From: a virus
Lineage: Duplodnaviria; Heunggongvirae; Uroviricota; Caudoviricetes
IMG/VR virus record: IMGVR_UViG_2531839193_000017
DNA: 17,262 nucleotides
Reading direction: 5' to 3' (one strand)
Shown: positions 14,087-14,815 of the stretch, piece by piece
Layout: every line of letters starts with the position of its first letter
Numbering within the stretch: position 1 is the stretch's first letter
The notes under the pieces: generated by a model
What the model was told of the DNA's origin: nothing
The model's database searches: none
The model's input: the letters and a program-made list of their open reading frames with translations, nothing else
Made by a program: the position numbers and the translations under genes

Positions 14087-14526
14087 ACGTAAACTTTTCC
14101 GGTTGTTGTCGATATCTCCCTATCCCTCAACCGGAAAATAATAATACTAAAGTGCTTAGCCCGGCTAATAATCACCTAATCCAAACGCCTCATTCATGTT
14201 CTGGTACAGTCGCTCAAATGTACTTCAGATGCGCGGTTCGCTGATTTCCAGGACATTGTCGTCATTCAGCGACCTGTCCCGTGTATCACGGTCCTGCGAA
14301 TTCATCAAGGAATGCATTGCGGAGTGAAGTATCGAGTCACGCCATATTTCGCTATCAGGATTCTGTGTGATGGTTACATCGCCCGGCCCAGGGCTGTTTA
14401 GTCATCAGCGCTTTCTGACAGTGCTGAGATTTCAACCTGTTGCAGTAAAAATGAGTAGATATAAGGCAAGTGTGCTGCCAAACCCATCTTTTACGGGGTG
14501 AAGGTAGATTTCGTTTGAAGGGTATC

Positions 14527-14541
14527 TGGTGTCCCCTGCAG
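14527..14541 (-). other. prophage attachment core: 15-nt copy of a tRNA 3' end (argW-like, ...CTGCAGGGGACACCA), attR-type
   Basis: The reverse complement of 14527-14541 is CTGCAGGGGACACCA, which I recall as the acceptor 3' strand plus CCA of tRNA-Arg(CCU). No T-arm is upstream, so it is an att repeat and not a tRNA gene. Confidence 0.55.
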
Positions 14542-14614
14542 ACATCTACTTGAGGCGGCAGGGGATTGATTGGAATGCTGTTTTTTAGATTTGAAAAATA
14601 TTTTACCCGCTATT

Positions 14615-14815
14615 TTACCCATTGGCGCGGCTTAAGAGCTTATTTTTGAATTCACAATGGTCACGATATAACCATCTTGCTCGTCCGTGGATAACTTTGG
14701 CTTTAGGCAGGTCGCCGGACTTAATCCGGTCATAGATGAAGGTCTTACCGAAGCCAGTATCAGCCATGATGAATTTCAAATCAACCAGTGAATCAGGTTG
14801 TAGTTCGTGTTGCAT
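14615..14815 (-). CDS. torI: TorI-like excisionase/recombination directionality factor (KplE1/CPS-53 prophage type)
   Basis: 66-aa ORF MQHELQPDSLVDLKFIMADTGFGKTFIYDRIKSGDLPKAKVIHGRARWLYRDHCEFKNKLLSRANG, matching TorI as I recall it; lies next to the att core. Confidence 0.75.
   Translation of the reverse strand: MQHELQPDSLVDLKFIMADTGFGKTFIYDRIKSGDLPKAKVIHGRARWLYRDHCEFKNKLLSRANG

What the first reader, a model, noticed from the sequence alone, without database searches (positions are those of the whole stretch)
14100..14815. KplE1/CPS-53-like prophage end (tRNA 3'-end core plus torI) abuts the sucrose locus
A 15-nt copy of a tRNA 3' terminus including CCA (reverse complement of 14527-14541) lies about 75 bp from a 66-aa TorI-like gene, the arrangement expected for the attR end of an argW-integrated prophage. 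On the other side of the core is cscB. In E. coli K-12, as I recall, this side of the prophage is flanked by dsdC/dsdX. The roughly 440 bp between cscB and the core (14087-14526) has no assigned feature.
Basis: partly seen in the sequence, partly recalled or inferred. Interest (0 to 1): 0.45.

Follow-up and report, generated by a model that had tools for sequence, protein, structure and literature searches.

The report
Prophage attR end beside sucrose genes

Summary
Window 14527-14541 is an exact 15-nt copy of the argW (tRNA-Arg CCU) 3' end. K-12 annotates the same copy as the pseudogene pawZ. It lies 73 bp from a torI gene whose product is 66/66 identical to K-12 TorI (PDB 1Z4H).

Comparing attB, attP, attL and attR shows perfect reciprocal recombinants around this core. 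The phage arm (14542-14638) differs at 5 of 97 positions from the K-12 attR used in published excision assays.

The prophage is lambda-like and carries a KplE1-type IntS/TorI module. It is not KplE1 itself: K-12 homology stops at 14934.

The "unassigned" 440 bp is the conserved argW-distal flank of csc-positive E. coli (2,624 of 5,426 complete genomes). About two-thirds of it is a decayed DUF4942 gene fragment. It also holds a terminator-like hairpin.

The same spacer-core-torI junction occurs in 373 complete E. coli genomes.

The window is from Shigella sonnei (99.9% identical to Ss046). There the 3.57-kb block holding cscB, attR and torI is inverted between two opposed IS1 copies, and the adjacent prophage early region is missing. 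The site is therefore most likely a fossil.

Novelty: already known. Interest is low.

The parts
14527..14541 (-). attR core: an exact 15-nt copy of the argW tRNA-Arg(CCU) 3' end, CTGCAGGGGACACCA (equivalent to the K-12 pseudogene pawZ)
   Evidence: BLAST breakpoints of chromosomal and phage homology overlap exactly here.
14542..14638 (-). Phage-derived arm of attR (P arm), running from the core into the last codons of torI. It contains two 10-nt direct repeats TATTTTACCC (14599-14608, 14611-14620; GGGTAAAATA on the minus strand) that are candidate IntS arm-type sites.
   Evidence: 5/97 mismatches to K-12 attR, 4/97 to phage IME10 attP, 2/97 to CEA224S. The sequence of the published attR-IHF2 primer, which delimits the 135-bp functional attR, is present exactly at 14619-14638 (PMC3509656). 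Repeats. The assignment as arm-type sites is inference; PMC2951348 reports a TAAA motif in the arm-type sites it mutated on attL.
14615..14815 (-). torI: recombination directionality factor (excisionase) and TorR inhibitor, 66 aa, intact
   Evidence: 66/66 identical to K-12 TorI. Full-length match to PDB 1Z4H 'Tor inhibition protein'. PHROG 66 excisionase. Annotated torI in all E. coli hits.
14816..14934 (-). torI upstream region and end of the KplE1-type module. It holds two terminator-like hairpins (14866-14881, 14916-14934) downstream of the ORF114-type gene.
   Evidence: K-12 homology (93.4%) ends at 14934. Hairpins. Phage 434 record M60848 annotates 'ORF114 | terminator' under the match.
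14087..14526 (.).
   Evidence: At least 80% covered in 2,624 of 5,426 complete E. coli genomes. In prophage-free strains it runs straight from cscB into intact argW. No similarity to the K-12 flank.
14174..14460 (-). Decayed internal fragment of a DUF4942 gene (aa ~38-151 of 282), with a frameshift and in-frame stops
   Evidence: Pfam PF13708, E 2e-9, 37.7 bits against a cutoff of 25. 72-76% nucleotide identity to intact DUF4942 genes. tblastn: 50% identity over 76 aa plus a second segment in another frame. PGAP annotates a 90-bp pseudogene here in many genomes.
14465..14479 (-). Terminator-like hairpin about 48 nt downstream of where argW ends in uninterrupted strains. It is a possible argW terminator, now orphaned.
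   Evidence: consensus scan only; the T-tail is weak.
12841..14086 (+). cscB sucrose permease gene, split here into three ORFs by two single-base deletions in homopolymer runs (at 12904 and 13454)
   Evidence: LacY_symp Pfam hits on both halves. Differences from S. sonnei Ss046 and L012, where cscB is an intact 415 aa.
12708..16274 (.). 3,567-bp block (3' end of cscK, cscB, spacer, attR, torI, ORF114-type gene, 200-aa gene) inverted between two opposed IS1 copies
   Evidence: Colinear with CEA224S at 99.5%. The cscK sequence continues in reverse beyond the right IS1 at 17043-17262. The 9-bp target CGCTTGCAG (12708-12716) reappears as CTGCAAGCG (17043-17051).
16275..17042 (-). IS1, complete (768 bp), right boundary of the inverted block
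9806..12707 (+). IS1 split by an IS21 insertion (IS1 nt 1-231 at 9806-10036; IS21 at 10037-12166; IS1 nt 228-768 at 12167-12707), left boundary of the inverted block
14938..15282 (-). 114-aa lambdoid gene of unknown function ('ORF114' of phages 434/HK022 type)
   Evidence: PHROG 1229, E 2e-51. Phage hits.
15524..16126 (+). 200-aa prophage gene of unknown function, the last gene before IS1
   Evidence: PHROG 1416. Exact protein found in S. sonnei chromosomes.

Best explanation
Window 14527-14815 is the attR junction of a lambda-like prophage that uses the KplE1-type (IntS/TorI) site-specific recombination module. [quoted passage not shown]

How the junction formed (established for this module): the phage attP lies between intS and torI. 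IntS recombines its core with the identical 15-16 nt at the end of argW. One core copy rebuilds argW next to intS (attL). The other copy, this one, ends up beside torI (attR), followed by the host DNA that used to lie downstream of argW. That host DNA is the 440-bp spacer (a DUF4942 gene relic plus a hairpin) and then cscB.

Excision would need TorI, IntS and IHF to assemble on attL and attR and recombine the two cores.

In this genome the site is very probably a fossil (inference). The 3.57-kb block carrying attR and torI has been inverted between two opposed IS1 copies. The neighbouring prophage early region is gone. The core should therefore now be in inverted orientation relative to the rest of the prophage, so IntS action could at best invert DNA, not excise it. 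torI itself remains an intact ORF.
For: - Core and tRNA: the core is identical to the argW 3' end.
- att sites: the four-way comparison gives exact reciprocal products. attB is E3 (L002), attP is phage IME10 (intS, 161 bp, core, arm, torI; L023), attL is CEA224S/K-12, and attR is the window, CEA224S and Ss046.
- TorI: 100% identical to K-12 and to PDB 1Z4H.
- P arm: 5/97 mismatches to the K-12 attR that supports in vitro excision (PMC3509656, PMC2951348).
- Complete relative: E. coli CEA224S has yfdC-argW-intS ... torI-core-spacer-cscB with a 48-kb lambdoid prophage.
- Frequency: the same junction occurs in 373 of 5,426 complete E. coli genomes.
- Spacer: it is continuous with intact argW in prophage-free csc+ strains.
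- Rest of the window: it holds lambdoid late-regulation and lysis genes (NinB-like, YbcO, RusA, Q, porin, holin, lysozyme, Rz, KilA-N) in the orientation expected if the block is flipped back.
- IS1 structure: inverted IS1 copies and an inverted 9-bp target duplication.
- Source: the window is 99.92-99.96% identical and colinear to S. sonnei chromosomes including Ss046, CP000038.1.
- Literature: attP between int and xis for this phage group (PMC8787464); csc next to argW as a prophage hot spot, and IS-disrupted csc in Shigella (PMC11251922, PMC3032704).
Against: The argW, attL and intS of the window's own genome were not seen. There is no tRNA within about 10 kb on either side in the S. sonnei loci held. 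The claim that attR is now inverted relative to attL therefore assumes no further rearrangement in the unseen part of the prophage.

No activity of any kind was tested. The arm-type site assignment of the TATTTTACCC repeats is inferred, because the papers that map the attR sites were not available. No sigma-70-like promoter was found near torI by a simple scan, so expression of torI here is unknown.
Confidence: 0.93

Rival explanations
1. The site is the end of the K-12 cryptic prophage KplE1/CPS-53 itself.
For: TorI is identical to K-12, and core, arm and torI are 93.4% identical to K-12 over 14527-14934.
Against: K-12 similarity stops at 14934. The adjacent genes are of the lambdoid ORF114 type, not ypdJ/yfdT. 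The rest of the window and the relative CEA224S show lambda-like early, late and lysis modules. The same module sits on many different phages (PMC2951348, PMC3509656).
Confidence: 0.03
2. The site is a still functional attR of an excision-competent prophage.
For: The core, P arm and torI are all intact and near-identical to functional versions.
Against: The block is inverted between IS1 copies, and the early region (exo to P, present in CEA224S) is missing beside it. Further IS elements sit in or beside the prophage late and lysis genes: an IS3-family element cuts the lysozyme gene, an IS1 lies between the porin and holin genes, and IS21 is inserted in an IS1. The arrangement is the same in eight S. 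sonnei chromosomes and in thousands of short-read assemblies, which points to stable inheritance.
Confidence: 0.04
3. The 15-mer is a chance match, or the stump of a deleted tRNA gene, and not an att duplication.
For: Short tRNA-end matches can arise by deletion. The shuffle control shows that matches with up to 3 mismatches are not rare (0.39 expected).
Against: The match is exact, with an expectation of about 3e-5. The DNA beyond it is the phage attP arm, not tRNA body. The breakpoints of phage and host homology coincide with its two ends.
Confidence: 0.01
4. The csc genes and the spacer are cargo of the prophage, so the core is internal to the element and not its boundary.
For: PMC11251922 mentions four coliphage genome records that contain csc.
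Against: Spacer and csc are present next to an intact, uninterrupted argW in prophage-free strains of several lineages. Phage attP diverges from the window exactly at the core.
Confidence: 0.01

Closest known systems
attR of the KplE1 (CPS-53) prophage of E. coli K-12, including the pawZ pseudo-tRNA and torI
   Same: Same 15-nt core, same 73-bp distance to torI, identical TorI protein, and a P arm 95% identical. The site is next to the argW-dsd/csc variable region.
   Different: The host flank is spacer plus cscB instead of dsdC. The base after CCA is G rather than T, so the shared core is 15 nt, not the 16 nt reported for K-12 (PMC2951348). The prophage body is lambda-like, not the 10-kb KplE1 remnant.
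Lambdoid argW prophages of csc-positive E. coli (e.g. strain CEA224S; 'Argw*W' of E. coli W)
   Same: Identical junction: cscB, 440 bp, core, torI, ORF114-type gene, 200-aa gene (99.5% identity over 3.57 kb). Same Q, porin and lysis genes. A lambda-type prophage at argW in E. coli W is listed in PMC3032704.
   Different: In CEA224S the prophage is complete and colinear, with argW-intS 48 kb away. Here the junction block is inverted, the early region is lost and several IS elements are inserted.
attP regions of P22-like and lambdoid phages with the IntS/TorI module (IME10, HK620, Sf6, Kapi1)
   Same: intS, P' arm, core, P arm, xis/torI in that order. Homology to the window begins exactly at the core (PMC3509656, PMC8787464).
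   Different: Those are unrecombined attP sites on phage genomes. This is the recombined prophage-host junction.
IS-disrupted csc loci of Shigella species
   Same: cscK is cut by IS1, other IS elements lie in the locus, and cscA and cscR are retained. This matches the description in PMC11251922.
   Different: The text I read from that paper describes IS interruptions. I did not see there the inversion of the cscB-attR-torI block that is shown here.

Membership tests
KplE1-type (IntS/TorI) recombination module, attR site | Core sequence identical to the 3' end of argW (CTGCAGGGGACACCA[T]) | tested here: met
   15/15 exact. The 16th base is G instead of T because of the csc-type host flank (PMC2951348).
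KplE1-type (IntS/TorI) recombination module, attR site | RDF gene torI adjacent to the core, reading toward it | tested here: met
   torI at 14615-14815 (minus strand), stop codon 73 bp from the core, protein 66/66 identical to K-12 TorI and to 1Z4H.
KplE1-type (IntS/TorI) recombination module, attR site | Phage arm matching the experimentally functional 135-bp attR | tested here: met
   5/97 mismatches. The attR-IHF2 primer site is exact at 14619-14638 (PMC3509656). Individual binding sites could not be mapped because the source papers are not held.
KplE1-type (IntS/TorI) recombination module, attR site | Cognate attL (intact argW plus intS) at the other prophage end | not testable with these tools
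   Met in the relative CEA224S.
KplE1-type (IntS/TorI) recombination module, attR site | Supports IntS/TorI/IHF-dependent excisive recombination | not testable with these tools
   Requires an experiment. The structure argues against excision in this genome.
KplE1/CPS-53 cryptic prophage proper | Prophage gene content as in K-12 (yfdG-yfdT, ypdJ next to torI) | tested here: not met
   K-12 homology ends at 14934. The neighbours are lambdoid genes.
DUF4942 (Pfam PF13708) gene | Match to the family profile above the curated threshold, as an intact ORF | tested here: inconclusive
   The profile match is above threshold (37.7 against 25 bits) but covers only profile positions 5-62 of 190. tblastn covers aa 38-151 of 282 with a frameshift and stops. 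It is a pseudogene relic, not a gene.
IS1-mediated inversion | Two IS1 copies in opposite orientation flanking the segment, with a single 9-bp target present once inside and once outside in inverted orientation | tested here: met
   IS1 at 9806-12707 (plus strand, split by IS21) and at 16275-17042 (minus strand). CGCTTGCAG at 12708-12716 and CTGCAAGCG at 17043-17051. cscK sequence is split across them.

The most novel reading that the evidence does not exclude
Two modest readings are not excluded.

(a) The DUF4942 relic reads away from argW and starts about 66 bp from the tRNA end. It is fixed next to csc in all lineages examined. This would mean the csc sucrose cluster reached the argW site in association with a CP4/P4-integrase-type genomic island whose integrase-proximal part was later deleted. 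The prophage attR would then sit on top of an older layer of integration.

(b) In S. sonnei the IS1 inversion permanently locked the prophage while torI was kept intact. This could reflect retention of TorI for its host-directed role as a TorR inhibitor.
Probability: 0.2. Interest if true: 0.25.

Novelty: already known. Interest (0 to 1): 0.08.

Why it matters
It matters little beyond correct annotation. The result shows that the segment is a textbook tRNA-targeted prophage junction, the equivalent of K-12 pawZ plus torI, sitting in the well-studied argW-dsd/csc variable region. It also shows that the "empty" 440 bp is a conserved flank with a pseudogene relic.

For Shigella sonnei genomics it documents one concrete example of IS1-driven scrambling. 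The IS1 event both inactivated the csc operon and stranded a prophage attachment site. It also explains why this block assembles as an isolated contig of about 3.5 kb in short-read assemblies.

Tried and rejected
- **Rfam:** a scan of the whole window found no RNA family at gathering threshold, and the partial tRNA end was not detected.
- **Promoters:** the scan of 13900-15400 found none.
- **Source genome:** an exact-pattern scan of genome contigs for the IS1/cscK junction gave 0 hits, probably because S. sonnei is not a species representative there. The source was identified through the look-up of encoding contigs instead.
- **Walking to argW:** reaching argW/intS in S. sonnei was not possible, because look-ups are limited to proteins encoded in the window. 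The loci held carry no tRNA.
- **Second argW copy:** I searched for a second, older copy of the argW end (up to 3 mismatches) in the window and at the csc/dsdX boundary of strain E3, to test the 'csc came on an argW island' idea. None was found.
- **TorI families:** NCBIfam gave no hit for TorI. Identity to K-12 and PDB settled the assignment.
- **Papers not held:** the JBC 2007 and Virology 2010 papers that map the attR binding sites, and Moritz & Welch 2006.
- **Not run:** I ran no further search on IntS, because the verdict does not depend on it.

Full report
**Observation**

The plus strand at 14527-14541 reads TGGTGTCCCCTGCAG. Its reverse complement, CTGCAGGGGACACCA, is the last 15 nt, including CCA, of the tRNA-Arg(CCU) gene argW. 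This holds for argW as annotated in K-12 and as found by ARAGORN in E. coli E3 and CEA224S.

It is the only match in the window even with three mismatches allowed. An exact 15-mer is expected about 3e-5 times in 2 x 17 kb by my arithmetic. The shuffle number refers to matches with up to 3 mismatches.

The ORF at 14615-14815 on the minus strand encodes 66 aa. The protein is 66/66 identical to K-12 TorI and matches PDB 1Z4H 'Tor inhibition protein' over its full length. The gap between the core and the torI stop codon is 73 bp, exactly as between torI and the 15-bp pseudogene pawZ in K-12. The window contains no tRNA gene.

**What it is**

Similarity searches place the two homology breakpoints on the two edges of the 15-mer:
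- Prophage-free csc-positive E. coli match window 12708-14541 and then continue into the body of argW.
- K-12 and phage genomes match from 14527 onward.

Printing the sequences around every copy of the core gives a clean four-way picture:

| Site | Source | Left of core | Right of core |
|---|---|---|---|
| attB | strain E3 | spacer | argW body |
| attP | phage IME10 | intS side | torI arm |
| attL | CEA224S, K-12 | intS side | argW body |
| attR | window, CEA224S, S. sonnei Ss046 | spacer | torI arm |

In IME10, attP has intS 161 bp from the core on one side and the torI homologue on the other. attL and attR are the exact reciprocal products of IntS-type recombination.

The phage arm (14542-14638) has 5/97 mismatches to K-12. 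It contains, exactly, the site of the primer (attR-IHF2) that delimits the 135-bp attR used in published in vitro excision assays (PMC3509656, PMC2951348). Two 10-nt direct repeats, TATTTTACCC, lie 12 bp apart at 14599-14620. They are plausible IntS arm-type sites, because PMC2951348 reports a TAAA motif in the arm-type sites it mutated on attL. I could not check this against the mapping papers, which are not held.

**Which prophage**

K-12 similarity (93.4%) ends at 14934. The next gene (14938-15282) belongs to the 'ORF114' family of phages 434 and HK022.

The rest of the window carries lambdoid late-regulation and lysis genes: NinB-like, YbcO, RusA, Q, a porin, holin, lysozyme, Rz/Rz1 and KilA-N.

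E. coli CEA224S has the same junction at 99.5% identity over 3.57 kb. It shows the intact version: yfdC, argW, intS, tail, head, lysis, Q, nin, O/P, cI, N, red genes, torI, core, spacer, cscB. The element is therefore a lambda-like prophage carrying the KplE1-type IntS/TorI module, not KplE1/CPS-53 itself. This fits the literature statement that the module is shared by many phages that target argW (PMC2951348, PMC3509656, PMC8787464).

**The 440-bp spacer (14087-14526)**

At least 80% of the spacer is covered in 2,624 of 5,426 complete E. coli genomes. In prophage-free strains of different lineages it links cscB directly to intact argW. It has no similarity to the K-12 flank.

Its interior is a decayed DUF4942 gene on the minus strand:
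- Pfam PF13708, E 2e-9, above the curated cutoff.
- 72-76% nucleotide identity to intact DUF4942 genes elsewhere.
- tblastn against the Nissle protein covers aa 38-151 of 282 (window 14174-14460), with one frameshift and in-frame stops.

In Nissle, the intact DUF4942 gene lies just past the antirestriction/RadC-like/CbeA-CbtA gene string of an Ag43-carrying island; from my own knowledge this is the distal part of CP4-type islands. A terminator-like hairpin at 14465-14479 (minus strand) lies about 48 nt beyond the argW end position. Rfam finds nothing in the window.

I looked for an older second copy of the argW end that would mark a former island boundary. None was found in the window or at the csc/dsdX junction of strain E3. 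An island origin of csc therefore remains speculation.

**Genomic context in this window**

The window is 99.92-99.96% identical and colinear over 5526-17262 with eight chromosomes that carry the exact 200-aa protein of 15524-16126. One of them is CP000038.1, which is Shigella sonnei Ss046.

Three IS1 copies are present:
- 4330-5097, plus strand.
- 9806-12707, plus strand, split by IS21 at 10037-12166.
- 16275-17042, minus strand.

The 3,567-bp block 12708-16274 is colinear with CEA224S. It holds the last 62 nt of cscK, cscB, the spacer, attR, torI and two phage genes. Beyond the right IS1 the window continues with cscK in reverse (17043-17262). The 9-bp sequence CGCTTGCAG at 12708-12716 reappears inverted at 17043-17051.

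This is the signature of an IS1-mediated inversion. It could have arisen by intramolecular transposition, or by insertion followed by recombination between opposed copies. The final structure does not distinguish the two.

The other pair of flanks (9797-9805 and 16266-16274) does not match. The early region present in CEA224S between the 200-aa gene and the nin genes is absent. An additional IS1-associated deletion must therefore have occurred.

If the block is flipped back, the order and orientation of cscK, cscB, attR, torI and then nin, Q and lysis genes equals that of CEA224S. Most index entries for the 200-aa protein are contigs of 2-5 kb, such as L014 and L015 (cscB, torI, 114-aa, 200-aa). 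This is what IS1-bounded DNA yields in short-read assemblies and suggests that the arrangement is fixed in the species.

**Mechanism**

Shown for this module in the literature and consistent with the sequences here: IntS recombines the attP core with the argW 3' end. That regenerates argW at attL beside intS and leaves the duplicate core beside torI at attR. Excision needs TorI, IntS and IHF (PMC2951348, PMC3509656).

Inferred for this genome: attR now lies on an inverted block and the early region is lost. The site should therefore be in inverted orientation relative to attL, so it could support only inversion, not excision. It is a fossil. The torI ORF is intact, but its expression here is unknown.

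The S. sonnei argW/intS end could not be reached. No tRNA lies within the loci held, and a collection scan found nothing.

**Comparison with known work and verdict**

Every element is already described:
- The 16-nt KplE1 core and attR (PMC2951348), and the pawZ annotation in K-12.
- The IntS/TorI module on HK620, Sf6 and Kapi1 (PMC3509656, PMC8787464).
- csc inserted between argW and dsdX, with lambdoid prophages frequent at this spot (PMC3032704, PMC11251922).
- IS-disrupted csc loci in Shigella (PMC11251922).

The same spacer-core-torI junction is present in 373 of 5,426 complete E. coli genomes.

Novelty is 'already known' and interest is low.

Noticed in passing
window 12708-16274, with 12708-12716 and 17043-17051: The whole cscB-attR-torI block is inverted between two opposed IS1 copies. 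One 9-bp cscK target (CGCTTGCAG / CTGCAAGCG) lies once inside and once outside the block. The other flank pair does not match, which implies an extra deletion of the prophage early region.
   Followed up: yes
window 9806-12707: IS21 (10037-12166, istA 390 aa and istB 266 aa) is inserted into an IS1 copy at IS1 position ~228-231, with a 4-bp overlap.
   Followed up: partly
window 12904 and 13454: cscB is broken by two 1-nt deletions in homopolymer runs (T5 vs T6, A6 vs A7) relative to other S. sonnei chromosomes, where cscB is an intact 415-aa ORF. These could be real mutations or long-read homopolymer errors.
   Followed up: partly
window 14174-14460 (minus strand): An internal fragment (aa ~38-151 of 282) of a DUF4942 gene, a gene family that in E. 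coli Nissle sits beside the CbeA-CbtA gene string of an Ag43-carrying island (from my own knowledge, the distal end of CP4-type islands). It is fixed between cscB and argW in every csc-positive strain I inspected (six, including phylogroup B2 A0 34/86), and 2,624 of 5,426 complete genomes cover at least 80% of the spacer. It may be a trace of an older island at argW.
   Followed up: partly
window 2092-3805: An IS3-family element (ORFs 3485-3805 and 2533-3438, minus strand) truncates the prophage lysozyme gene to 129 aa. The gene is 165 aa in another chromosome that shares the window's arrangement (L020, CP049175.1).
   Followed up: no
window 5487-6569 (plus strand): A prophage-borne OmpC/NmpC-like porin gene (360 aa, apparently intact) lies between the Q antiterminator and the holin, with an IS1 (4330-5097) between porin and holin.
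   Followed up: no
window 8896-9698 (plus strand): Two ORFs of unknown function (125 aa, PHROG 18061; 161 aa, PHROG 16940, with a weak 7TM-like match) are oriented against the nin genes, like a moron. The window has an extra G at 9294 relative to Ss046, which changes the reading frame of the second ORF.
   Followed up: no
L014 and L015 (contigs of 3,551 and 3,540 bp); index statistics: 2,925 of 3,350 index blocks carry the 200-aa protein on contigs of 2-5 kb. The IS1-bounded block assembles as an isolated contig of about 3.5 kb in short-read assemblies, which suggests that the arrangement is fixed in S. sonnei.
   Followed up: partly
L005 6001-6867 (E. coli 90-3040): In this strain the spacer is fused to a frameshifted N-terminal integrase fragment ('Arm DNA-binding domain') next to argW. 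This looks like a deletion that removed an argW prophage from within intS to attR. A second integrase and prophage lie on the other side of argW.
   Followed up: no
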